DNA of 33,355 nt from a virus (IMGVR_UViG_3300037044_000237:1-33355); one strand, 5' to 3'; counted from the stretch's first letter, positions 3,207-33,355 are shown. Numbers and translations: made by a program. Notes: generated by a model not told the origin, from the sequence alone.

Positions 3207-3986
3207 ATGTCCGGAGAGCCTGAAAAAACCAATTCCGTGAAAGCACGGGTGCTCACAGTAAAAAACATCTACGATAAGCAATATGACACACTTAAGGTTT
3301 CGGGCATTTGGGCTGAGGTACTGGGCGAGGTTGAGGCAAACGGCGCCTGGCTGATTTACGGCAAAGAGAAAAACGGCAAGACCACGGCGGCGCTTACGCT
3401 CGCCTGGCATTTAAGCAATAATTACAGAGTTCTTTACATAAGTGCAGAGGAGGGAGTCGGGAAAGCATTCAGGGATACCCTTCAGCGGATTGGCGTAGAT
3501 GCAGGCGCACGTAACATCCATTTTATGGATTACGAGAAGGTTCCTTTACTGAAGGATCGCCTTAAACGTCGGAAGTCGGCAGAGGTGGTGGTGGTTGATA
3601 ATCTGACAATCTACAACGACGAGCTGAAGGGGAATGCTTTACGCGAATTCCTGCGAGAGCTAAGAGCCAAGCTGATCATATTCGTTGCCCATGAGGAGCG
3701 TGGGGAGCCATACACAGCATCGGCAAAGCTGGCCCGGAAGCTTGCAAAAGTAATCATCCATGTGAAGGGGCTCCTTTGCAGTGTTTCAGGAAGGGTGCCC
3801 GGGGGCACTCTAATAATTGACGAGGTTAAAGCACAATTGTATCACGGATATAACATCAAAAATGAGAGCACAACCAATAAATCCAAGCAGGAGGTATTAC
3901 CTGCACCGGAAGTTAAAGAAGCTTTACCGGGTAGAAGCAAGAAAAAAGCTAATCCACGTCCCAATCGGGGGGGGGGGGCGAAATGA
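3207..3986 (+). CDS. Second P-loop ATPase (RecA/KaiC-like)
   Basis: Walker A GKEKNGKT, VLYISAEEG, Walker B VVVVDN. Confidence 0.8.
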   Translation: MSGEPEKTNSVKARVLTVKNIYDKQYDTLKVSGIWAEVLGEVEANGAWLIYGKEKNGKTTAALTLAWHLSNNYRVLYISAEEGVGKAFRDTLQRIGVDAGARNIHFMDYEKVPLLKDRLKRRKSAEVVVVDNLTIYNDELKGNALREFLRELRAKLIIFVAHEERGEPYTASAKLARKLAKVIIHVKGLLCSVSGRVPGGTLIIDEVKAQLYHGYNIKNESTTNKSKQEVLPAPEVKEALPGRSKKKANPRPNRGGGAK

Positions 3987-9451: not shown

Positions 9452-10156
9452 ATGAAAAAATCTCTACTATTTATTTGCATCCTGGCAGTCATTGCATCAT
9501 GCAAGAAAGACGACAATTTAACAATTAACCAAAATGAGGTCACACTACATCATGATTCAACATTTAAGTTAACGGCCAATTATGCCTGCACGTATAGCAC
9601 AGTTGACAGTACTGTGGCTAAAGTTGCGGCGGATGGAACTGTTACCGGCGTACTGGTTGGAAGTACCACAATACTTGTGAAGGCCATCGGGCAATTAGCC
9701 ACATGCAAAGTTACAGTTACTCCAGTAAGCAATTTATATAAAGAGCCTTATCTTATATTCGGATCGACCGTGGCTTCAGTTAAAAGCTATGAACAGCGTG
9801 ACCTGCTATCGGAAACCACTACAATGTTATTTTATTCCGGTGAAAATAGTAATACGCTAATGGTATTGTACTCATTTGAAAATGGGAAGTTAGAATCATC
9901 ATTGGTGATGTTAAATAACTCGGCATTAGTGGCTGAGGCGTTAACAACATATATGAAAGAAAGATATTACTACCTCGGTTATTCCGACCCATATTATTTA
10001 TTTTCAAATAAAAAAGGTATTCTAGCCGCCATTTCCGTTCAGGAAACCTTAGGGCTTAATGTAATTTACACAAAAGAATCATATAAGGGTCTTGAAAGTG
10101 CAACCGGCAGTATTTTGAAAGCCCAAAATCAGTTAACCGGCAAATTATGTAAATAG
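9452..10156 (+). CDS. Lipoprotein with Ig-like (Big_2-type) domain; moron
   Basis: Signal peptide with lipobox IASC then KKDD; VAKVAADGTVTG...GSTTILV...ATCKVTV; AT-rich. Confidence 0.8.
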   Translation: MKKSLLFICILAVIASCKKDDNLTINQNEVTLHHDSTFKLTANYACTYSTVDSTVAKVAADGTVTGVLVGSTTILVKAIGQLATCKVTVTPVSNLYKEPYLIFGSTVASVKSYEQRDLLSETTTMLFYSGENSNTLMVLYSFENGKLESSLVMLNNSALVAEALTTYMKERYYYLGYSDPYYLFSNKKGILAAISVQETLGLNVIYTKESYKGLESATGSILKAQNQLTGKLCK

Positions 10157-11227: not shown

Positions 11228-11286
11228 TAGGCTTTGGATATCAGTCGCGCTGGAGTTAATCCGGAGAAGACGCTTTCCAAAGCCTA
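11228..11286 (+). ncRNA. Putative small hairpin RNA overlapping the MuF stop codon
   Basis: Perfect 11-bp inverted repeat TAGGCTTTGGA/TCCAAAGCCTA enclosing CTGGA-GTTAA-TCCGG; just downstream of the promoter box; no U-tract. Confidence 0.45.
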
Positions 11287-12558
11287 TTTCTTTATCGGCT
11301 TTTTAATTACTCCCTTTGGCAGATAGTCGGTAATGCAGTACAATACCTCCCGCTTATAATGCCGGTGCAGCTTCACATTTACATACGCTTTCCTGCCAGC
11401 TATTTCAGCCTCATAATAGGTAAATAGCTCCGCTTCAGGATGCTTTGTTTTACCGGCAAATGTGTGCCCCTGAGGGTAAGTATCGACGGGTTTATAACCA
11501 ATGTACTTCCAGCCCTTAATCTCATCGCTGATTTTCGGAATATACAATAGCTTTTCATAACCGGCATTGTGCTCCCTTACATCGGAGATGCTCCTGCGCA
11601 ATACAACCAGGCTTCCGGACTGAAGGGCGCTGTTGGTAATGATTACACCATTGTGCCCGGGCAGAGTTGACCTAAAGGTTTTTAATGCTTGCTCAGCATA
11701 GGCGAGCATTACCTTATTCACAAATGATTTTACAAGCTCTGCAAGCTTTTTGCCACCATAAGCATTGGTTACATAGGGGTGCTTCAGGCTGAAAATCTTA
11801 CCTGTGAATGCCGGGTTACCATCGAGCCCGGCGGGTGGCTCCGGAATATCATCGCCAATATTGAACAGCTTCCCGTTCGGGGCCTCGTCGGTATTGGTAA
11901 TGCCGCACTTGCAATTCCACAGACTGCCCGGGTACTGGATTTGCCAGAATGGATGCGCGATCGGTAAAATAAGCCCGTACAGCTTTACATGCGGCTCACG
12001 TTTTACAACGCTGGTTGATTCAGTCCAGCGGAGGTTTGGGTAAAGATCGGCATCGCGCTGAAATTGTTTGTACCTGGCAGCCATGCGCGCACGGATCACG
12101 GCGGTATCATATTCCGTTTTCAGCCAGTTCTTGTTATACTCACCTATTACAGGCTCAGCATCGCGCCGGAATTGATCAAATGGCTTGAGCTTCCCGTTTT
12201 CATCGAGTAGAAGCTTTGCCAGGTCGTTCTGTTGACGGTGGGTCTTAAATGCCGAAAATACGCCGTTGTTGTACTTCAGCTCATTTACAAAGTCATAGTC
12301 TGGGTGATCATACGAAATGGAACCAAAGCCGGTATCTATAGCCCCGTTAAGCGTGTCGAAAGTAACTTTAAACAGATTGGGCTCAATGCCGGTTTCAACA
12401 TCGACCAGCTCATTGTAGATATTCTCCAGGGCTTTGTTTAGTATGTCCCCGAGTCCGTCCGTTTCGGCAACCGGGCTGGCTTGCGAGTATAGCTCGTGTT
12501 GGTAAAGGCCGTCAACTAAAATTTTAAAGGAGCCCCCCCGAGCCTGAGGGCTTCTGAG
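11284..12558 (-). CDS. MuF (Mu gp30) minor head protein with C-terminal extension; probably made by -1 frameshift from portal
   Basis: Frame open from 12606 to 11284. MuF motifs FSAFKTH and WLKTEYDTA lie upstream of the first GTG (12099); HPFW..YPGSLWNCKCG lies downstream. Confidence 0.8.
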   Translation of the reverse strand, partial: LRSPQARGGSFKILVDGLYQHELYSQASPVAETDGLGDILNKALENIYNELVDVETGIEPNLFKVTFDTLNGAIDTGFGSISYDHPDYDFVNELKYNNGVFSAFKTHRQQNDLAKLLLDENGKLKPFDQFRRDAEPVIGEYNKNWLKTEYDTAVIRARMAARYKQFQRDADLYPNLRWTESTSVVKREPHVKLYGLILPIAHPFWQIQYPGSLWNCKCGITNTDEAPNGKLFNIGDDIPEPPAGLDGNPAFTGKIFSLKHPYVTNAYGGKKLAELVKSFVNKVMLAYAEQALKTFRSTLPGHNGVIITNSALQSGSLVVLRRSISDVREHNAGYEKLLYIPKISDEIKGWKYIGYKPVDTYPQGHTFAGKTKHPEAELFTYYEAEIAGRKAYVNVKLHRHYKREVLYCITDYLPKGVIKKPIKK

Positions 12559-13817
12559 AAAAAACCAAAGAACCTTTCCATCGCGGTGGCCTCCGTGCCC
12601 TTCTTTTTAGCTTTGCCTGGCACTGGCTGTTTCGGATCGGTGGTTTTGTCTTCCGGATCATCATTATCATCCTGGTTGCCGCCTGAGACCGTTTCCCCGT
12701 CTTTAGGCATTCTTACGCCCGACACCTCGTATATGTATTCGTCTGATACCGGTATGCCCTTGCCTCTGATATTTAGTGCGATATCAACCCGTGTTTTGGT
12801 ATCCAGGCTCTCCCCCTGTTCAGGGAATACAAATTTACCACCCGTTACCGGCAGCCCCAGGAGCTCCCATACCGGCAAGATCTTACTGTTGAGAACACGG
12901 CGCACAAAACGGCGGTCTGCCTTGTTTTTGTCTTCAGACACGTCCTTATGCGTTTCGGACTGAGAGCGGCTTGATCCGTCAACAGTGGTCATGGTTTCCC
13001 CCAGTACCGTGATCAGTATTTCCTTTTCACAACGGTCGATCAACTTATCGAAAAGCTCCCCATTGCTGTTGCTGGTGGCTTCCTTCTGGTCAAGCTCAGC
13101 CTCTTTAGGAACCACCATATTCAGCTTGCCCCCCGCCATCTGTAAAGCCTTTATCAACTCATCGCGTACAGTGGTGTCGTAGGCCGAATACTTCCATGCC
13201 CGGAAAGGCATGCCGAATATTTCGGCAAACTCAGTCCAGTCGCCAAAGCCGCCCCTTTTGTAGATAACATAAACGGCAGCTTTGTAAATATAGCCAAGCG
13301 GGTCGTTCGGGTTGATTACTTCAACCAGGTAAGGGTTATCGGCATATGCCAGCCCGTTTTCGTCATACTCGTTGGTAACGACCATCTTTTTAGCCGTATT
13401 CAGGTTGCGCCTGGGCACATTGTAGAATTTGAGTGAGGGCAATACACTCATAACATCGATAACGGATATACCCCAGGCCTGTGCCTCCATGATGTATGTG
13501 AGCAGGTTTTCAAATTCCACGCTATCCATCAAGGCATTAATTTCCTCATCCGGCTCTCCCTGTGCGTTTATAAAAACCAGTTCAGCGTTGGTAACTGCCT
13601 CGGTGCGCTTTCCTATCGATACCGATAAAGTACCATCGGCCATAAGGTTTTCGTATAGCTTGAACAGGCTATTCCGCATGCCCATCTTTGCCGAGTTAAC
13701 CGCACTACGCCAGGTTGACACATCGGCGCTTTCAACGTTTGCGGGCCGTGCTTCAACAACAACTACATGTTGCTCAATCTTTGGGGCTTTGCCCCCTTTT
13801 TTTACCTCTACAGCCAT
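12516..13817 (-). CDS. Portal protein (Mu gp29/DUF935-like)
   Basis: DWTEFAEIFGMPFR, ITVLGETMTT..GSSRSQSETH; position after gp36-like. Confidence 0.9.
   Translation of the reverse strand: MAVEVKKGGKAPKIEQHVVVVEARPANVESADVSTWRSAVNSAKMGMRNSLFKLYENLMADGTLSVSIGKRTEAVTNAELVFINAQGEPDEEINALMDSVEFENLLTYIMEAQAWGISVIDVMSVLPSLKFYNVPRRNLNTAKKMVVTNEYDENGLAYADNPYLVEVINPNDPLGYIYKAAVYVIYKRGGFGDWTEFAEIFGMPFRAWKYSAYDTTVRDELIKALQMAGGKLNMVVPKEAELDQKEATSNSNGELFDKLIDRCEKEILITVLGETMTTVDGSSRSQSETHKDVSEDKNKADRRFVRRVLNSKILPVWELLGLPVTGGKFVFPEQGESLDTKTRVDIALNIRGKGIPVSDEYIYEVSGVRMPKDGETVSGGNQDDNDDPEDKTTDPKQPVPGKAKKKGTEATAMERFFGFFSEALRLGGAPLKF
12531..12564 (-). promoter_or_regulatory. Candidate -1 ribosomal frameshift signal
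   Basis: T TTT TTC (12564-12558) in portal frame, 5-nt spacer, hairpin AGCCCTC/GGGGGCT. Confidence 0.7.
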
Positions 13818-16730: not shown

Positions 16731-17834
16731 ATGTTTAAGGTAGAAAAGGGCACGGATAAAGCAGTAATTACCGCATACGGCAACGTTGGCGGGTACTTTC
16801 TTGACTACCGTAACATTGCTGATGCCCTCTCTGAAATTTCACGGGCCGGATACAAGCAGGTTGATATCCGTATGCACACCCACGGCGGCAGTGTTATTGA
16901 CGGTAACATGATCTTCAATTTCATTACAAGCTTTAAGGGGCAGATAGATATATACGTTGACGGTATTGCCGCATCTATGGGATCAATTATTGCCCTGGCG
17001 TCCGACAGGCTTCATATTGCCGAAAACGGGTTTATAATGATCCATAGCCCAAAGGGTTCCGGATACGGTACCGCGAAGGAGCTAATTGAATCGGCCAAAT
17101 TGCTCACCAGCCTGGAGAAAAACTTCACGACAAAGTTGGCAGCCCGTATGGGCAAATCCCCGGATGAAATCCGAGCCGCATATTTCGATGGAATCGACCA
17201 CTGGATCGACGCTGATGAGGCCGTCGCCTTAAAACTTGCAACCGACAAGTTTACCTCAAAAAACGGGAATTTGTCGTTCACTAAAGCCGACGCCGAGCGC
17301 GAAGGGCTCAAAGGCATGTTTGGCCAATACACCGCCTTACTTGACATTGTTACACCAATCCCAATACCAGAAACAGACATGAAAATTGTAAACATGAAGC
17401 TCGGCATTGCCGAGGGAGCCAGCGAACAGGAAGCCGTAACGGCCATTGAGGCTACGCTCAAACGCGCCCAGGATGCTGAGGCCGCTCTTAAGGTTTTACA
17501 GGATAAAGAGAAGCTTATCCTGAAAGCCGAAGTAAAAACCCTGCTTGATGCCGCTTTGGCCGATGGTAAAATCGCCGCCACTGGCCGCACCGCCTGGGAA
17601 GCCCAGTTTGAAAAAGACCATGAATCGGCAAAAGCACTTCTTGATTGCGTGCCCAAAAGGGTAAGCGCACAGGCGGTGGTTGAAGCCGGGCAAAAACCGG
17701 CTGATACCAAGTTGCTCACCATGACCTACGACCAGCTCGACAAACAGGGCCTCATTCTCGAAATGAAAGCCAAGTTCCCTGAGGAGTACAAAGAGCTCTT
17801 TAAAAAGGAGTTTGGCACATACCCGAACGCCTGA
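16731..17834 (+). CDS. ClpP-type prohead protease fused to scaffold domain
   Basis: HTHGGSV, DGIAASMGS (Ser), IMIHSP (His), DHWIDADEA; Ala/Glu/Lys-rich helical C-half. Confidence 0.9.
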   Translation: MFKVEKGTDKAVITAYGNVGGYFLDYRNIADALSEISRAGYKQVDIRMHTHGGSVIDGNMIFNFITSFKGQIDIYVDGIAASMGSIIALASDRLHIAENGFIMIHSPKGSGYGTAKELIESAKLLTSLEKNFTTKLAARMGKSPDEIRAAYFDGIDHWIDADEAVALKLATDKFTSKNGNLSFTKADAEREGLKGMFGQYTALLDIVTPIPIPETDMKIVNMKLGIAEGASEQEAVTAIEATLKRAQDAEAALKVLQDKEKLILKAEVKTLLDAALADGKIAATGRTAWEAQFEKDHESAKALLDCVPKRVSAQAVVEAGQKPADTKLLTMTYDQLDKQGLILEMKAKFPEEYKELFKKEFGTYPNA

Positions 17835-17892
17835 TCTGAAAAGCCAGGATAAAACTAACCAAGGATTTTTAAAACCCAAAACCCAAACAAAC

Positions 17893-18951
17893 GTGAAAAA
17901 GATCAGTGCATTTTTATTTAACATGGTAGCCGCCACCCTGCTTTTGGCAGTTGTGGGCCTGCCCGTTTTGGCCGCTCCGGCGGTTGCTCTCATTACCGGC
18001 TTTCTGCCCACCAGCGGAGGCTTAATGATGGCCATTCAAAAGGAGATATGGCAAAAGGATATCGTTAGCACCCTGTTTGCCGACAATACCTTTTTATCGA
18101 AGGCCTTTAACGCCGACAGTTATGTACTTGCCGGTAAGGTAGTACACATACCACAGGCCGGAACTCCATCCGCCGTTGTAAAAAACAGGGCAGTTCTCCC
18201 CGCAGTTGCAGTTAAGCGTACCGATACTGAAATCAGCTACTCGCTCGACGAATACACCACTACCCCACGCGTTGTACAGGTAACTGAGCAGGTAGAAGCA
18301 AGCTACGATAAACGGCAGTCGGTTATTGGTGAAGATAAGGACGCGCTGATGGAGGCAGTAAGTGAAGAGTTCATTGACAAGTGGAGCCCTGAAGCTGCCG
18401 CTGCCGCCACCTGCTATTTGCGCACCACAGGAGCTGCCGTTGTGGCACACTTGCCAGGCGCAACGGGTAACCGAATGGCAATAACGGTCAGTGATGTGGC
18501 CGACGCCCAATTTAAAATGAACAGCCTTAATATACCTAAGGCTGAACGGTACGCGCTTATAGATTCATGGATGTATAAGCAGCTGCTGGCCAATATGACT
18601 ACGGCCGCACAGGTTGCGTTTCACGCACAGGCCGATGTTGCAAAGGGAACGATTGGTAAACTGCACGGCTTTGAGTTTTACGAACGCAGCTCTGTAACCA
18701 GGTACACCAACGTTGCCACCCCGGTTCATAAAACATGGGACACGGCGAATGCAATAACGGATAACGCCGCTGCCTTATTCTGGCAGAAAAACAGCGTTGA
18801 GCGCGCACTCGGTGAAGTCGTGGCGTTCGATAATTCCAAAGATGCCACCTACTACGGCGATGTTCTGTCGTTCCTTATTAGGGCGGGCGGACGCATAAGG
18901 CGCGCTGACTATAAGGGTGTTATTGCTTTAATTCAAACGGCTACAGCCTAA
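17893..18951 (+). CDS. Major capsid protein with hydrophobic N-terminal leader
   Basis: Follows protease; KEIW, GKVVHIPQAG, IGKLHGFEFYER; likely GTG start 17893 after an A/C-rich tract. Confidence 0.82.
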   Translation: MKKISAFLFNMVAATLLLAVVGLPVLAAPAVALITGFLPTSGGLMMAIQKEIWQKDIVSTLFADNTFLSKAFNADSYVLAGKVVHIPQAGTPSAVVKNRAVLPAVAVKRTDTEISYSLDEYTTTPRVVQVTEQVEASYDKRQSVIGEDKDALMEAVSEEFIDKWSPEAAAAATCYLRTTGAAVVAHLPGATGNRMAITVSDVADAQFKMNSLNIPKAERYALIDSWMYKQLLANMTTAAQVAFHAQADVAKGTIGKLHGFEFYERSSVTRYTNVATPVHKTWDTANAITDNAAALFWQKNSVERALGEVVAFDNSKDATYYGDVLSFLIRAGGRIRRADYKGVIALIQTATA

Positions 18952-20902: not shown

Positions 20903-21361
20903 ATGACGCCGGAACTTCAGGCGGCAAACTCACTGCTTAAGCGGGGCGTGCGATTCAAACTGCCCGCCCCGCCTCTTTTCAGGCTACTTGGCGCAAAGCA
21001 CGTAAGCATAAACATAACGCCGCTTTATGCAGGAACCGAGCTACGGATAGCCGCGCTACTATCAGAGAAAGGAATTACTGAAGAAAAACTGAATGCAGAC
21101 CCGTCAATGCTCATGTATCAGCACTACAACGACATACTGAAAATAGTTGCCCTGGCAAGCCTCAACCGGTTTGCTATATCGCGTCTGGCAATGTGGCTCC
21201 GCATTTGGTTGCTACGCCAGGCTTCTGTATGGCAGCTTTACGAGTTGTACTCAATGATCAGGCAGTTTAGCGGGACAGGCCCTTTTTTGAATATTACCAG
21301 ATTAGTCATTCAAACGAGGATGACAGCTCCGAATCTGGGGCAGACGGCGAAGGGGAGTTAA
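20903..21361 (+). CDS. Tail assembly chaperone (G-like)
   Basis: Position; contains slippery T TTT TTG. Confidence 0.75.
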   Translation: MTPELQAANSLLKRGVRFKLPAPPLFRLLGAKHVSINITPLYAGTELRIAALLSEKGITEEKLNADPSMLMYQHYNDILKIVALASLNRFAISRLAMWLRIWLLRQASVWQLYELYSMIRQFSGTGPFLNITRLVIQTRMTAPNLGQTAKGS

Positions 21362-21838: not shown

Positions 21839-24800
21839 ATGCCAGATACATTAGGCCCGGTTGAATTAGAATTTTCAATTCCTGACGATTTTGAAAAGGA
21901 TATTGATTCCGCCATCAAGAAGATGGCCGGTTTAACCGGTGCCGCCTCAAAATTGCCCGCCGATGTAAAAGCCGCTATGGTTGAGCAGTCGGCTGTTGTT
22001 AAAGCAATAGAAGCGGATGTTAAAGCGCTTGAAAAAAGTCTTAACAGCGTTGCACCTGGTAAAGCAAAGCAGGAGATCATTCAGGAGGTTGCGGCTGCCA
22101 AGCGCGCACTGGCAGAGGAGTCGGCAAGCCTGAAGCAACTTGAGACCGCATACGACGGAGCTAAAGAGGGGTCACGGCGTTTAAGCTTCCAGCTCCGCGA
22201 CATGCAGGATCAGCTTACAAAAATGAGGCTGGCCGGTAAGCAGGGAACCGAGGAGTATAGAAAAATGGAGCTGGCCGCTGCAGCTCTCGCCGATGAGATC
22301 GCCGACGTCAGAAATGTAACCAGGCAGCTCGCCGATGACCAGGGGAACTTCAAAGGATTTGCCGATGGTGTTACCGGTGTTACCGGAGCATTCGCGGCAG
22401 CCGGTGGAGCCGTCGCCCTGTTTGTGGGCGAAAATGAAAACCTTCAAAAAATACAGACTAAGGTCCAGGGCCTGATGGCGATAACTATCGGCCTTCAGCA
22501 GGTTTCTACCGCGTTGAATAAGGACAGCGCATTTATGACCATTACGGTGGCTAAAGGAAAACAGCTTTGGGCAGCCGCGGAAACAAAGCTTACAGCGGCA
22601 CTATGGGGAAGTAATGTTGCCGCAAAGGCTCTGATGGCAACACTGACACTCGGCATTGCCGTGGCAATACCGGTTATTATATCGCTTTTAGATCGTTGGA
22701 ATACTGCTCAGAAAGAAGCAATTGAGGCACAAAGGGAGGCAGTTAAAATTACAAAAGATGCCAATATCGAGGCTGGAAAATCAAGGGTTGAAATAGAAAT
22801 GCTGATATCAAAGCTACGCGATTTCAAGGGTTCAAAGCTTGACGAAAAGCGCATGGTTGATGAGGTGAATAAAAAGTATGGCGACACCTTTGGCACATAT
22901 AAAACGCTGGCCTCATGGCTTGATGTTCTTAAAACCAAGTCGGATGCCTATGTTGAGTCCATGTTTCTCCAGGCAAAGGTACAGGGGCTGATTGCAAAGG
23001 CAAATGAGGTTGAGTCAAAAATTCAGAATTATGAAACCGAGCCACTTAAAACATTTGAGCGTGGAAATGACGGATATCAGACAGTTAATACCCCTCAGGG
23101 GAATGTCCGCACATTTGACCCTCAACTTGCAAAGCAACAAGCGGAGGAGCGTAAACAGCAATTTATAAAAGCCTTACAAGCCGAGCGTGATCAGATTAAG
23201 CGCGAGGCTAAGGAAGAACAAGCCAAGTACTTGAAGCTAACGGCGGCTACCGGAATAAACCCAGGCCTTGACCCTGGAAAAACTGACAAGGAAAAGACTG
23301 AAAAGACCTACGCTCAAAAACTGGCCGAGATAAAGAAGTTCTATGAGCTGTATAAGAAAGCCATTGAGTTAGGCCAGGCTGAAGCCGCCGCAATATTTCA
23401 GAAGCAGCTACCCGATGCATCAACCTTCCAGGGTTATGTTGATTCAGAAATAAGCAAGGCAAGCAAAGAAGGCAACCAGGAAAAACTATCGGCACTCCTC
23501 CCGGAGCAGGAGCAATTCAGGGCGGGGCTAAATGAATTACTTGGCGAATTCAAGACCTACCAGGAGCAACGTGCCGCAATCGAAAAAGAGTACAATGAGA
23601 AAATATGGCTATTTACAAAGGCCGGTTATACTGAGAAGGCTAAAGTAGCCGCTGAGGCTCGTGATAAGGAGCTTCAGGAGCTTGACGAAAGCCAGCCGCT
23701 GAACAAGCTTATTGATAAGTACCGGGACTACCGCGGGCAAATTGTCAAGATTACCGAGGACAGCCAAAAAGAGATAGACGCCCTGAGGGCCGCCGGGAAT
23801 GAAAACGAGGCTATTGAAGCTGAGCTAAGACGTGACCAGGAGATCGGTAAGCTTATACTCGATAATGAGTTTAAGCAGTATGAGAAAATTGAAGAAATGG
23901 GGCGCAAAGAGCTCCAGGCCTTCATGTTAAAAATCAAGACGAAAATTGAGGTACTCAAAGCTGAAGGTAAAAACGTTGAACTGCTCGAGCAGGTTTATAA
24001 TAAAGCACAAAAGGCACTATCTGGCGGTGATGGCGCGGCAAATAAGTTTAAAAATGTTGCCGATATATTCGGATCAATTACCCAGGCCGCCGGTCTTATG
24101 AACGACGAGCTCGGCCGCATGGTTGGCCTCGCCGCTAACTTGGCCAGTAATATGAGCGGGGCGCTCGAGTCAATGAAAAAAGGCGGTGCTGAAGCTATAA
24201 GCGGTTTTGGTACAATTGTTAGCATAGTGGCCACAATAGCCGATGAACTTGATAAGCAATGGGGCAGGCAGGCACGCATTGCTGATCTGGAGCAGAAGCG
24301 CATTGCAAATAATAACAGGCTCAGGAATGTGATTGATAATACAACAGATGCGCTTGAAAGGCAGCTGAAGGCACTCGACAGGATAAGCGGTGCTGAAAAG
24401 CCGGAGGCATATAATGAAACACTTGATTTTCTCCGTGCAAAAATCGAAAGCACACAGGCGGCAATAGACACCTTTAAGTTCGATTTCTTGCCCGGCCCTG
24501 ATGACCTTGATCAAACAATTGATCTTGCATTTATTAAGTTCGCCACAAAAGCAGAAACCGAGGCCGAGGCAATAAGAATAGCACTTGCAGATGGCATAAT
24601 CAGCCGGGAGCAGGCCGACATCGCTTTGGAATACATCAGGACACTCGAGCAACTAAGCGATCAGGCCTACGAGATGAGCCAACAGCGGATTGAGTTTCTA
24701 ACCCAAACAAACTCCATCGATCTTGCAAATGAGCTGGCCGACACAATAGTTAATGCCTTTAACGAAGGTGAATCGGCCGCTATGGCCTGGGGGATGGTTA

Positions 24801-25276
24801 CTGACCAGGTGATGGCAAACGCGATTAAAAGCGCGCTAAAAATGAAGCTATTGAGCGGGCCAATTAATGACGCCGTTGCCGCTTTGGCTGACGACATGGA
24901 GGACGGGGCACTTTCGGTGTCAGAGCAAAACGCCTTCCGCGACAAGCTCGACGCCGCGGCTGAGAACTTTAACGCAGCGCTGGCCGCCTACCCTGATCTT
25001 TTCGGCACCGAAACGGCAGCGGCTCTGGCAGAGCCAAACCGGAACATGTTCAGCGGAATGACCCAACAAACCGGTAGTGAGCTACTCGGGCAATTTACCG
25101 CCCTCCGGATGAGCTCCGCCCGTGTGGCCGATATACTTGCCGACGAGCGCAACGCCAGGGCGGCCATGCGGCAGACGCTTGAGATAATTGCTGAGAATAC
25201 CTGGTACTGCCGCAAACTTGATAACATTGACCGAACCTTAACCACTTTAGAAACCGACGGGATAAAAGTAAGATGA
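21839..25276 (+). CDS. Tape measure protein
   Basis: 1145 aa, Ala/Glu/Lys-rich helical with hydrophobic segments; follows chaperones. Confidence 0.92.
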   Translation: MPDTLGPVELEFSIPDDFEKDIDSAIKKMAGLTGAASKLPADVKAAMVEQSAVVKAIEADVKALEKSLNSVAPGKAKQEIIQEVAAAKRALAEESASLKQLETAYDGAKEGSRRLSFQLRDMQDQLTKMRLAGKQGTEEYRKMELAAAALADEIADVRNVTRQLADDQGNFKGFADGVTGVTGAFAAAGGAVALFVGENENLQKIQTKVQGLMAITIGLQQVSTALNKDSAFMTITVAKGKQLWAAAETKLTAALWGSNVAAKALMATLTLGIAVAIPVIISLLDRWNTAQKEAIEAQREAVKITKDANIEAGKSRVEIEMLISKLRDFKGSKLDEKRMVDEVNKKYGDTFGTYKTLASWLDVLKTKSDAYVESMFLQAKVQGLIAKANEVESKIQNYETEPLKTFERGNDGYQTVNTPQGNVRTFDPQLAKQQAEERKQQFIKALQAERDQIKREAKEEQAKYLKLTAATGINPGLDPGKTDKEKTEKTYAQKLAEIKKFYELYKKAIELGQAEAAAIFQKQLPDASTFQGYVDSEISKASKEGNQEKLSALLPEQEQFRAGLNELLGEFKTYQEQRAAIEKEYNEKIWLFTKAGYTEKAKVAAEARDKELQELDESQPLNKLIDKYRDYRGQIVKITEDSQKEIDALRAAGNENEAIEAELRRDQEIGKLILDNEFKQYEKIEEMGRKELQAFMLKIKTKIEVLKAEGKNVELLEQVYNKAQKALSGGDGAANKFKNVADIFGSITQAAGLMNDELGRMVGLAANLASNMSGALESMKKGGAEAISGFGTIVSIVATIADELDKQWGRQARIADLEQKRIANNNRLRNVIDNTTDALERQLKALDRISGAEKPEAYNETLDFLRAKIESTQAAIDTFKFDFLPGPDDLDQTIDLAFIKFATKAETEAEAIRIALADGIISREQADIALEYIRTLEQLSDQAYEMSQQRIEFLTQTNSIDLANELADTIVNAFNEGESAAMAWGMVTDQVMANAIKSALKMKLLSGPINDAVAALADDMEDGALSVSEQNAFRDKLDAAAENFNAALAAYPDLFGTETAAALAEPNRNMFSGMTQQTGSELLGQFTALRMSSARVADILADERNARAAMRQTLEIIAENTWYCRKLDNIDRTLTTLETDGIKVR

Positions 25277-32063: not shown

Positions 32064-32219
32064 ATGCAAAACTATGAAAAAAAAGAAACAGTGAAAAAGA
32101 GCTACGCTTACCGGCCCCAATTCGGGCTGGTAATTATATGCCAGGATGAGCAGGAACAAATCAAGCTCTTTAATGAGCTACAGTCAAAAAATCTAAAGCT
32201 TAAAGTTGTAACCGTATGA
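32064..32219 (+). CDS. Unlisted 51-aa protein coupled to ABC-GNAT
   Basis: MQNYEKKETVKKSYAYRPQFGLVIICQDEQEQIKLFNELQSKNLKLKVVTV (alternative GTG 32091); ATGA overlap with 32216. Confidence 0.7.
   Translation: MQNYEKKETVKKSYAYRPQFGLVIICQDEQEQIKLFNELQSKNLKLKVVTV
32067..32074 (-). promoter_or_regulatory. Antisense Bacteroidetes -7 box
   Basis: TAGTTTTG(CA) on - strand, perfect TAnnTTTG; no clear -33 box. Confidence 0.45.
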
Positions 32220-33355
32220 GAATCGAAATCAACCATACCTGCGCTAATTATGATAGCTACAGGGCAGAGCGGGTAAAATCGCTTTTCAATGCTGAAACGG
32301 GGTACTCCTGGTCGCACATAGCCGAGTTACCCATCGATGAGTTATTCTGGCAGATCGGGCTTATAGTCGGCCCCAGCGGATCGGGTAAAAGCTCAATCGG
32401 TAGGGCCATCTACCCAGATACCCCTTTACATGATCTTTATGCCGGGTGGCCAGCCGATAGGCCAATAGTGGACGCGATTGCACCCACTGGCGACTTTAAC
32501 CAGGTTACGGGAGCATTGGCGGCCGTCGGGCTCGGAGACGTTCCCGCATGGCTCAGGCCGTTCAGGGTATTATCGAACGGCGAGCAGTTCAGGGCAGGCC
32601 TGGCAAGGCTAATCTGCGAGCGTCCGGAGGTGGCCGTAATTGATGAGTTCACCAGCGTAATTGATAGGCAGATCGCTAAGGTTGGCGCGGCCGCCTTCGG
32701 TAAAAGCTGGAGGAGAGGTTCCGGGAGGGTGGTATTATTAACGCCACATTATGATGTAATTGAATGGCTTCAACCGGACTGGGTATATGATACTAAAGAG
32801 GCGCGGTATTACAGCCGTGACTGCCTTCGGCAACGACCGGAGATTGGTATCACAATTTACAGAGTTCCGGGAACGAAATGGGGTTATTTTAAGCCGCATT
32901 ACTATTTAGACTTGCCGTTCCCTGTCGCGGCTCAATACTTTATTGCCTTCGCTGGCGATGAACCGGTCGCACACCTGGCCGTGTGCCCGATGTTTCAATC
33001 AAAGCATTACAGGGCCACTCGTATGGTTGTGCTCCCGGAGTGGCAGGGAATAGGGGTCGGAACGGCGTTTCTGAATGAGGTATGCCGACAGCACCTGATC
33101 GGCAACGGCCGCAACGGGCACCAATTTAGCACGCTATTCCATACCTCGCACCCGCAGCTGTGTAGCGCGCTCAGAAAGTCGGTACAATGGGAGCAAGTAA
33201 GCGGGGCCATAAAGTTTGATAACAAGGCCAAATCAATAAAGACCTTGCAGGCCTCGGCCGAGGCAAAGGGCCAGCGCAAGAAGTCGGGCGGGTTTGGTGG
33301 CCATTTCAGGGCCATACAGGGCTTTAAGTTTAAAGGCAGTGAAAATGGTCATTAA
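32216..33355 (+). CDS. ABC-type ATPase fused to GNAT acyltransferase; putative DNA-modification enzyme
   Basis: GPSGSGKS, LSNGE signature, VIDEF, LTPH; GNAT motif A RMVVLPEWQGIGVG; no TM partner in window. Confidence 0.82.
   Translation: MRIEINHTCANYDSYRAERVKSLFNAETGYSWSHIAELPIDELFWQIGLIVGPSGSGKSSIGRAIYPDTPLHDLYAGWPADRPIVDAIAPTGDFNQVTGALAAVGLGDVPAWLRPFRVLSNGEQFRAGLARLICERPEVAVIDEFTSVIDRQIAKVGAAAFGKSWRRGSGRVVLLTPHYDVIEWLQPDWVYDTKEARYYSRDCLRQRPEIGITIYRVPGTKWGYFKPHYYLDLPFPVAAQYFIAFAGDEPVAHLAVCPMFQSKHYRATRMVVLPEWQGIGVGTAFLNEVCRQHLIGNGRNGHQFSTLFHTSHPQLCSALRKSVQWEQVSGAIKFDNKAKSIKTLQASAEAKGQRKKSGGFGGHFRAIQGFKFKGSENGH

What the first reader, a model, noticed from the sequence alone, without database searches (positions are those of the whole stretch)
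11284..12606. Portal and MuF apparently joined by a programmed -1 frameshift
Seen: the MuF frame is open from 12606 but has no ATG/GTG/TTG until 12099, after ~150 codons that include MuF-type motifs (FSAFKTH, WLKTEYDTA). It is the -1 frame of the portal gene. The portal 3' end has an in-frame slippery heptamer T TTT TTC (12564-12558), a 5-nt spacer and a GC hairpin (AGCCCTC/GGGGGCT), plus a second heptamer T TTA AAA (12528-12522) just before its stop. Inference: a fraction of portal subunits is made as an ~844-aa portal-MuF fusion, tethering MuF and its cargo to the portal ring at fixed stoichiometry. Frameshifts are established for tail chaperones and some capsids; I do not know this one as described.
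Basis: partly seen in the sequence, partly recalled or inferred. Interest (0 to 1): 0.87.

Follow-up and report, generated by a model that had tools for sequence, protein, structure and literature searches.

The report
Two-way frameshift linking portal and MuF
At the end of this Mu-like phage's portal gene, a slippery run of T's and a GC-rich hairpin are kept in almost all related phages that carry MuF, and likely make some ribosomes slip back one base, so one message would yield the portal both alone and fused to the head protein MuF, a recoding site not found in the papers searched.

Summary
Confirmed and extended. MuF lies in the portal's -1 frame, and its first start codon is 119 residues into the MuF-homologous region. 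The portal end carries T TTT TTC, a 6-nt spacer and a GC hairpin. Among 138 non-redundant relatives with portal and MuF, 35 share this layout and all 35 have a slippery heptamer plus stem. Another 101 are in-frame portal-MuF fusions; 99 keep the same signal, but there the -1 frame stops after 1-36 codons. Control Phe-Phe pairs use these codons in 5 of 70 cases. The stem covaries, and a MuF-less portal clade lacks the signal. Most likely a programmed -1 ribosomal frameshift yields both free portal and portal-MuF, and its polarity has flipped several times. It is not shown experimentally. The second heptamer is probably incidental, and 24 of 35 same-layout relatives have a possible MuF start. 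The searches found no paper describing it. This scan noted portal-MuF frameshifts before on other DNA (49 notes, at least 46 genomes). New variant of a known kind.

The parts
12516..13817 (-). Mu-type portal gene, 433 aa, about 48 kDa; product of standard decoding, ending in a low-complexity linker and ...FFGFFSEALRLGGAPLKF
   Evidence: PF06074 E 6.5e-65; phrog_113 portal
12558..12564 (-). Slippery heptamer T TTT TTC (Phe-Phe codons 419-420 of the portal); predicted tandem -1 shift site
   Evidence: T TTT TTY in 33 of 35 same-layout and 99 of 101 fused relatives, against 5 of 70 control Phe-Phe pairs
12552..12557 (-). 6-nt spacer (TCAGAA); its last A can pair as an extra base pair of the stem
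   Evidence: stem starts 5-6 nt after the heptamer in all 134 sites, within a search range of 5-7 nt
12532..12551 (-). GC hairpin GCCCTC / GGGGGC with an 8-nt loop; predicted 3' stimulator
   Evidence: fold; covariation
12522..12528 (-). Second heptamer T TTA AAA; probably a by-product of dual coding (L-K in the 0 frame, F-K in the -1 frame), not the main site
   Evidence: T TTA AAN at this place in 8 of 35 same-layout relatives, all one clade; C TTA AAC in L001, L003, L141
11284..12558 (-). MuF reading frame after the slip (424 codons plus stop; frame open from 12606); predicted C-terminal half of an 844-aa, about 95 kDa portal-MuF fusion
   Evidence: phrog_35074 matches the portal at profile 6-408 and this frame from residue 15 at profile 410-672; residues 52-218 are 38% identical to an in-frame fusion protein
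11902..12156 (-). Phage_Mu_F core domain (residues 151-235 of the open frame); GTG 12099, the first canonical start, lies inside it
11287..11754 (-). C-terminal cargo domain of MuF, unassigned; weak lead to LPD3/PBECR-like domains
   Evidence: no Pfam hit at E 1; Atlas best feature score 0.86, LPD3 in 73% of that cluster, a lead only

Best explanation
A conserved slippery site (U UUU UUC), 6-nt spacer and GC hairpin at the portal/MuF junction likely drive a programmed -1 ribosomal frameshift, so that this gene pair would make both a 433-aa free portal and an 844-aa portal-MuF fusion. Steps: (1) the signal, its frame and the missing MuF start are shown in the sequence; (2) selection on the codons and on the RNA stem is shown by comparison; (3) pausing at the hairpin and a tandem slip of two tRNA-Phe from UUU UUC to UUU UUU is inferred from known X_XXY_YYZ sites; (4) co-assembly of both forms into a mixed portal ring, which would carry a limited number of MuF-cargo copies into the head, is inferred. 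In 101 relatives the wiring is reversed: standard decoding gives the fusion and the shift would give the short portal. The selected trait therefore appears to be making both forms, whichever frame holds MuF.
For: Of 138 representatives (<90% portal identity), 35 have MuF in the -1 frame, 101 in frame and 2 in +1. A heptamer in the portal frame lies at the junction in 35 of 35 (33 T TTT TTY, 2 A AAA AAR) and 99 of 101, against 5 of 70 Phe-Phe pairs in the portal and MuF cores. A stem with at least 5 G-C pairs follows in 133 of 134, against 3 of 70 control Phe-Phe sites and 28 of 1350 linker positions. Covariation: anchored on the outer four pairs (122 of 134 sites), pair 5 is paired in 114 (C-G 86, G-C 12, U-A 10, U-G 5, A-U 1; shuffle mean 84.9, max 94) and pair 6 in 120 (shuffle mean 67.3, max 84). 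In 33 equal-loop sites, 198 of 198 cells pair and 24 change on both sides; 0 of 500 shuffles reach this. The stem persists where the portal stops 0-1 codons after the heptamer (6 relatives) and where the -1 frame stops after 1-6 codons (4 relatives), so neither protein frame explains it. Each layout has a short frame and a long frame after the site. All 16 loci with a terminated portal and no MuF lack the heptamer. Named phages carry the signal: Hankyphage p00, Elizabethkingia TCUEAP3 (same layout) and Porphyromonas phage007a (fused).
Against: No translation data: no junction peptide, ribosome profile or reporter. The window's hairpin alone is not significant. 24 of 35 same-layout relatives have an ATG/GTG/TTG upstream of, or within 10 codons of, the MuF match, and Hankyphage has an ATG overlapping the portal stop. 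Six of the 8 window-clade members have an ATT/ATC codon at or next to the portal stop (the window and L221 have GTT). One fused relative (L085) has no signal, and L070 has MuF in the +1 frame. The MuF-less control is one clade, so it counts as one event. Shuffle controls ignore relatedness, four of six stem pairs never vary in the aligned subset, and that subset was chosen by its outer pairs.
Confidence: 0.88

Rival explanations
1. MuF is made as a separate protein by re-initiation or non-canonical initiation near the portal stop (or from an internal promoter), and the heptamer and hairpin serve another purpose or are relics.
For: Possible canonical starts in 24 of 35 same-layout relatives; ATG overlapping the stop in Hankyphage, TTG/ATG at the stop in L137. 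ATT/ATC beside the stop in 6 of 8 window-clade members. A sigma-70-like site (10 of 12) at 12515-12486 just after the portal stop.
Against: It cannot explain the same signal in 99 of 101 in-frame fusions, which need no MuF start. First starts are scattered from 9 to 153 codons after the slip. ATT 12522, ATA 12444 and CTG 12429 are not shared across the window's clade. The promoter-like -10 hexamer differs in the closest relatives. Independent initiation may coexist with the shift in some lineages.
Confidence: 0.06
2. The frame change is made by RNA polymerase slipping on the T run (transcriptional slippage), or by DNA-level phase variation, not by the ribosome.
For: The site is a homopolymer run; transcriptional slippage yields the short dnaX product in Thermus (PMC5009743, passages).
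Against: The run is exactly 6 T in 126 of 134 sites, 7-8 bases in the rest, and the base before it is never T in the 132 T-sites. The review cites runs of 9 for slippage. The register X XXY YYZ and the 5-6 nt spacer are fixed. Both layouts have the same run length, so polarity does not flip at the run. L215 uses G GTT TTT with the same spacing.
Confidence: 0.04
3. The conserved letters reflect a protein motif (FFxxAP...GA) or an RNA element for mRNA stability or termination, and the window's layout is a broken fusion gene.
For: The Phe-Phe motif ends an apparently amphipathic stretch at the C-terminus of most portals listed; in-frame fusions are the majority of loci (210 of 269).
Against: Synonymous codon choice is fixed (132 of 136 against 5 of 70). 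The stem covaries and survives outside the portal frame. The -1 layout has intact 223-502-codon MuF frames in 35 representatives from several lineages. The U run precedes the hairpin, and no terminator-like site is called there.
Confidence: 0.02

Closest known systems
Tail assembly chaperone G/GT -1 frameshift (lambda; SPP1 gp17.5/17.5*, putative, at UUUUUUC)
   Same: X_XXY_YYZ -1 site near the end of a morphogenesis gene giving a short protein and a C-terminally extended one in a set ratio; SPP1 uses the same heptamer (PMC6316719 passages; PMC5009743 passages).
   Different: The genes here are portal and MuF, both virion head proteins, whereas G and GT are absent from the mature virion. A covarying 3' hairpin is nearly universal here, and both polarities occur.
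dnaX tau/gamma and carboxysome csoS2 -1 frameshifts
   Same: Slippery site plus 3' stem-loop; the shift truncates a long in-frame product, as predicted for the 101 fused relatives. The review notes reversed dnaX polarity in a few bacteria and that one nucleotide can swap the roles when efficiency is near 50% (PMC5009743 passages).
   Different: Cellular genes. Here it is a phage portal with U UUU UUC, both polarities are common in one family, and efficiency is unmeasured.
Frameshift-extended capsid and tail proteins (T7 10A/10B, T3, A2, A118, PSA, MSTV1 MCP-Ig)
   Same: A fraction of a virion subunit carries an extra C-terminal domain; relatives can be directly fused instead (PMC5009743; PMC11375127).
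   Different: Those extensions are mostly Ig-like surface domains on capsid or tail proteins. Here the subunit is the portal and the extension is the internal MuF-cargo protein; the fused relatives keep the shift signal.
SPP1 gp6/gp7 and constitutive portal-MuF fusions (Microbacterium clusters EA3, EA5, EA8, EB); MuF polymorphic toxins
   Same: MuF is encoded right after the portal and is targeted to the head by it, in one to two copies in SPP1 (PMC5576092; PMC6316719); in-frame fusions are known (PMC7302621; PMC5512222).
   Different: SPP1 uses non-covalent binding of two separate proteins. Published fusions are described as single genes, with no recoding mentioned in the passages seen.

Membership tests
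Programmed -1 ribosomal frameshift (X_XXY_YYZ class) | Slippery heptamer in the 0-frame register | tested here: met
   T TTT TTC 12564-12558; 134 of 136 representatives
Programmed -1 ribosomal frameshift (X_XXY_YYZ class) | 3' RNA stimulator 5-9 nt downstream | tested here: met
   Stem at 5-6 nt in 134 sites, covarying; range from PMC5009743
Programmed -1 ribosomal frameshift (X_XXY_YYZ class) | Conservation beyond protein-coding need | tested here: met
   132 of 136 against 5 of 70 control Phe-Phe pairs; stem kept beyond the portal stop in 6 relatives
Programmed -1 ribosomal frameshift (X_XXY_YYZ class) | Two products in different frames possible from one message | tested here: met
   0-frame stop after 0-14 codons with -1 frame open 223-502 codons (35), or -1 stop after 1-36 codons with 0 frame open 161-487 codons (99)
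Programmed -1 ribosomal frameshift (X_XXY_YYZ class) | Transframe protein detected and efficiency measured | not testable with these tools
   No RNA holder listed. Hankyphage gel-fraction proteomics do not resolve size and list no peptide sequences.
Tail assembly chaperone G/GT frameshift | Gene pair between major tail and tape measure genes, encoding tail chaperones | tested here: not met
   The genes are portal and MuF in the head module. A separate G/GT-like site exists at 21283-21289.
Mu-type portal (PF06074) and MuF1 (PF04233) | Profile match above the curated cut-off; MuF directly downstream of the portal | tested here: met
   220 bits (cut-off 23.9) and 37.7 bits (cut-off 29.6)
MuF polymorphic toxins | Known toxin domain at the C-terminus | tested here: inconclusive
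   No Pfam hit; Atlas lead to LPD3/PBECR2 below 0.9
MuF polymorphic toxins | Small immunity gene directly downstream | tested here: not met
   The next gene (11171-10620) is the tail-completion/neck gene; the gap of about 110 nt holds no listed ORF of 60 aa or more

The most novel reading that the evidence does not exclude
Bacteroidota Mu-like phages, including Hankyphage and the Porphyromonas gingivalis phages, build a mixed portal ring from one message. A ribosomal frameshift acts as a dial for how many MuF-cargo copies each virion carries, and the wiring has flipped several times between 'shift makes the fusion' and 'shift cuts the fusion' without loss of the signal. Most annotated portal and MuF genes in this family would then be mis-annotated as one product each.
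Probability: 0.7. Interest if true: 0.85.

Novelty: new variant of a known kind. Interest (0 to 1): 0.76.

Why it matters
The portal is normally treated as a ring of identical subunits (recalled), and how MuF and its toxin or effector cargo enter the head in few copies is known only from SPP1 gp7. A frameshift gives a covalent route with a tunable copy number, and can be tested directly in inducible phages such as Hankyphage. It adds the portal to the phage genes under recoding, changes annotation of a widespread gut, oral and environmental phage family, and offers a natural set of about 130 diverged -1 signals, in both polarities, for studying frameshifting in Bacteroidota.

Tried and rejected
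Window-only folding gave no significant z-score. The second heptamer was rejected as the main site. An assembly indel was not seen in contigs of three runs, two of which may be the source; X5 does not cover the junction; only contigs, no raw reads, were available. No RNA holder listed. The Hankyphage S6 proteomics table shows MuF (3 peptides, 9% coverage) in the 250-85 kDa fraction, but a 16-kDa adaptor is there too, so it is no evidence for a fusion. The IQ-TREE run did not finish; FastTree trees were used. Stem strength differs only slightly between layouts (median -14.4 against -15.7 kcal/mol, p 0.02), too little to infer efficiencies. The cargo domain stayed unassigned. No structure or complex prediction was run. 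Literature: 10 full-text searches listed no paper whose title or opening describes a portal-MuF frameshift; subscription journals are mostly missing, the review PMC5009743 is held only to 300,000 of 449,034 characters, and the PRFect supplements, which list its false-positive gene pairs, were not read.

Full report
Observation. The window is a 33.4-kb Mu-like phage sequence: terminase, adaptor, portal, MuF and neck genes on the minus strand, protease and capsid on the plus strand. The closest named relative is a Bacteroidota MAG with a 94% identical portal (L141), and runs holding the stretch are groundwater metagenomes. The portal (13817-12516, 433 aa) overlaps a 440-codon open frame (12606-11284) that is its -1 frame and matches Phage_Mu_F; the first ATG/GTG/TTG in it is GTG 12099, inside the Pfam domain and 119 residues into the region matched by my own MuF profile. 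T TTT TTC lies at 12564-12558 in the portal frame, followed by six bases and a GC hairpin at 12551-12532. A -1 slip there gives 420+424 = 844 residues. PHROG family 35074 matches the portal at profile positions 6-408 and the -1 frame from its residue 15 at positions 410-672, so a natural fusion family joins the two at this point. On the window alone the hairpin is unremarkable (z -0.73). Contigs of runs X1 and X2 span the stretch unchanged but may be the window's source; a depth-2.4 contig of X4 spans the junction unchanged; X5 does not cover it.

Relatives. I fetched 300 loci (some are repeats of one contig) and analysed them with the window. Of 301, 269 had a portal with a downstream MuF match: 210 in frame, 54 in the -1 frame, 5 in +1; 32 had none. 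Greedy dereplication at 90% portal identity left 138 representatives: 101 in-frame fusions (class B), 35 like the window (class A) and 2 in +1; at 70% the split is 56/29/2 and at 50% 9/9/2. The 131 absorbed loci, among them a few with broken frames, were not analysed further. Of 44 representatives with an organism name, 41 are Bacteroidota.

The signal. I searched the 260 nt before the MuF match for in-frame T6N or A6N heptamers and kept the one with the best stem. All 35 class A loci have one (30 T TTT TTC, 3 T TTT TTT, 2 A AAA AAR), and so do 99 of 101 class B loci. Of the two misses, L215 has G GTT TTT with the same hairpin at the same spacing, and L085 has no signal. Phe-Phe pairs in the portal and MuF cores of the same loci use T TTT TTY in 5 of 70 cases, against 137 of 157 in the junction zone. 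A stem with at least five G-C pairs starts 5-6 nt downstream in 133 of 134 sites, against 3 of 70 control Phe-Phe sites and 28 of 1350 linker positions. Anchored on the four outer pairs (122 of 134 sites), pair 5 is paired in 114 and pair 6 in 120, with C-G, G-C, U-A and A-U variants, above all 2000 shuffles; pair 7 is not (52, shuffle max 55). On 33 sites with equal loop length, all 198 cells pair, 24 change on both sides, and no shuffle or slid structure comes near. These controls ignore relatedness, four pairs never vary, and the subset was chosen by its outer pairs. Neither protein frame explains the stem: in six class A loci the portal stops 0-1 codons after the heptamer, and in four class B loci the -1 frame stops after 1-6 codons.

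Two polarities. In class A the 0 frame stops 0-14 codons after the heptamer and the -1 frame runs 223-502 codons through MuF. In class B the 0 frame runs 161-487 codons and the -1 frame stops after 1-36. Either way one message can give a free portal and a portal-MuF fusion. Hankyphage p00 and Elizabethkingia phage TCUEAP3 are class A; Porphyromonas phage007a is class B. On a FastTree portal tree the A/B label needs 9 changes, 8 forced by well-supported branches; on a MuF-core tree class A needs 5 (3 forced) and class B 7 (5 forced), with long-branch warnings. So several flips occurred, but part of the portal-tree count is likely module exchange. A motif typical of the class A -1 frame after the hairpin ([LIVM][DENQST]x[LIQVMA]Y, defined after seeing the data) occurs in 19 of 35 class A -1 frames, 25 of 99 class B -1 tails, 2 of 99 class B 0 frames and no +1 frame. 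This suggests that flips arise by an indel downstream of the hairpin, or that the short tail is itself selected; I could not separate the two. As a negative control, 16 loci with a terminated portal and no MuF match in any frame lack the heptamer and end about 350-385 residues after the profile start; the 13 distinct ones placed in the tree (L233 left out) form one clade, so this is a single event.

Against the reading. Only 11 of 35 class A loci have their first ATG/GTG/TTG more than ten codons inside the MuF match; the other 24 have a possible start, though at scattered places, and Hankyphage has an ATG overlapping the portal stop. Six of eight members of the window's clade have ATT or ATC at or beside the stop; the window has GTT. 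A sigma-70-like site follows the portal stop, but its -10 hexamer differs in the nearest relatives. The second heptamer is limited to the window's clade and is lost in L001, L003 and L141. L070 has MuF in the +1 frame with C TTT TTC and a hairpin 8 nt away, and L058 looks like a class B gene with a later break inside MuF. Transcriptional slippage and DNA phase variation fit poorly: the run is exactly six T in 126 of 134 sites.

Mechanism. Shown: frames, signal, conservation, covariation, co-occurrence with MuF. Inferred: the ribosome pauses with the hairpin at the mRNA entrance, two tRNA-Phe re-pair from UUU UUC to UUU UUU, and translation continues into MuF. Further inferred: both products assemble into one portal ring (twelve subunits, recalled), which places a limited number of MuF-cargo domains inside the head. 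[quoted passage not shown] Hankyphage particles contain both portal (20 peptides) and MuF (3 peptides), but the gel fractions do not resolve size (PMC12135933, supplement S6; jmh43 junction identical to p00).

Comparison with the known. It works like the G/GT, dnaX and csoS2 -1 frameshifts and meets every sequence-level feature of that class; it is not a G/GT site. The recoding review has no occurrence of 'portal' in the part held (PMC5009743 passages). Term searches of the MuF toxin paper, the polyvalent-protein paper, the Bxa paper and the Hankyphage paper found no 'frameshift'; the P. gingivalis phage paper mentions it only for spanins; the Microbacterium paper reports portal-MuF fusions without recoding; PMC8008677 and PMC11375127 concern other genes. 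[quoted passage not shown] All papers were seen as passages, except that section and one supplement. Ten searches listed no description. This scan's own notes hold 49 portal-MuF frameshift findings in at least 46 other genomes, including both polarities and other slippery motifs; I had recorded both polarities before looking, and these notes are unchecked and not counted as support. No look-alike of this portal was among them.

Verdict. A real, strongly conserved recoding signal; a programmed -1 ribosomal frameshift is about 88% likely. New variant of a known kind; interest 0.76.

Noticed in passing
window 21283-21289 (+), gene 20903-21361: The gene between the tail tube gene and the long 21839-25276 ORF has an in-frame T TTT TTG; its -1 frame stays open to about 21566. 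It looks like an ordinary G/GT tail chaperone frameshift, a second shift site in the same phage.
   Followed up: partly
L070 about 3735-3790: Portal ends FFSDEPSR; MuF is in the +1 (= -2) frame; C TTT TTC with a hairpin 8 nt away. Possibly a +1 or -2 variant, or an indel; single locus.
   Followed up: partly
L073, L218, L085 (one small clade); L215: L073 and L218 use A AAA AAR instead of T TTT TTC (stems of 4 and 5 G-C pairs); their relative L085 is a fusion with no signal; L215 uses G GTT TTT with the usual hairpin.
   Followed up: partly
class B loci, e.g. L022, L038, L169, L299, after the hairpin: The short -1 tails fall into two conserved types, ELxxEIxxQY and WxSPH. The second may reflect a second RNA hairpin (ATGG...CCAT) rather than a peptide.
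   Followed up: partly
L056, L060, L064, L077, L173, L176, L178, L190, L194, L201, L205, L211, L284: A clade of Mu-type portals without MuF nearby; the portal lacks the linker and is followed at once by a gene with a DxDxGQ motif.
   Followed up: partly
window 16731-18951 (+): The ClpP-type protease ORF overlaps the capsid ORF, whose listed TTG start lies well upstream of the capsid profile match (residue 69); the start was not checked.
   Followed up: no
window 32216-33355 (+): An ORF running off the window end has both ABC-transporter ATPase and GNAT acetyltransferase matches.
   Followed up: no
window 9452-10156 (+): A lipoprotein-like ORF with a weak Ig-like (Big_2) match faces the head-tail module from the opposite strand.
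   Followed up: no
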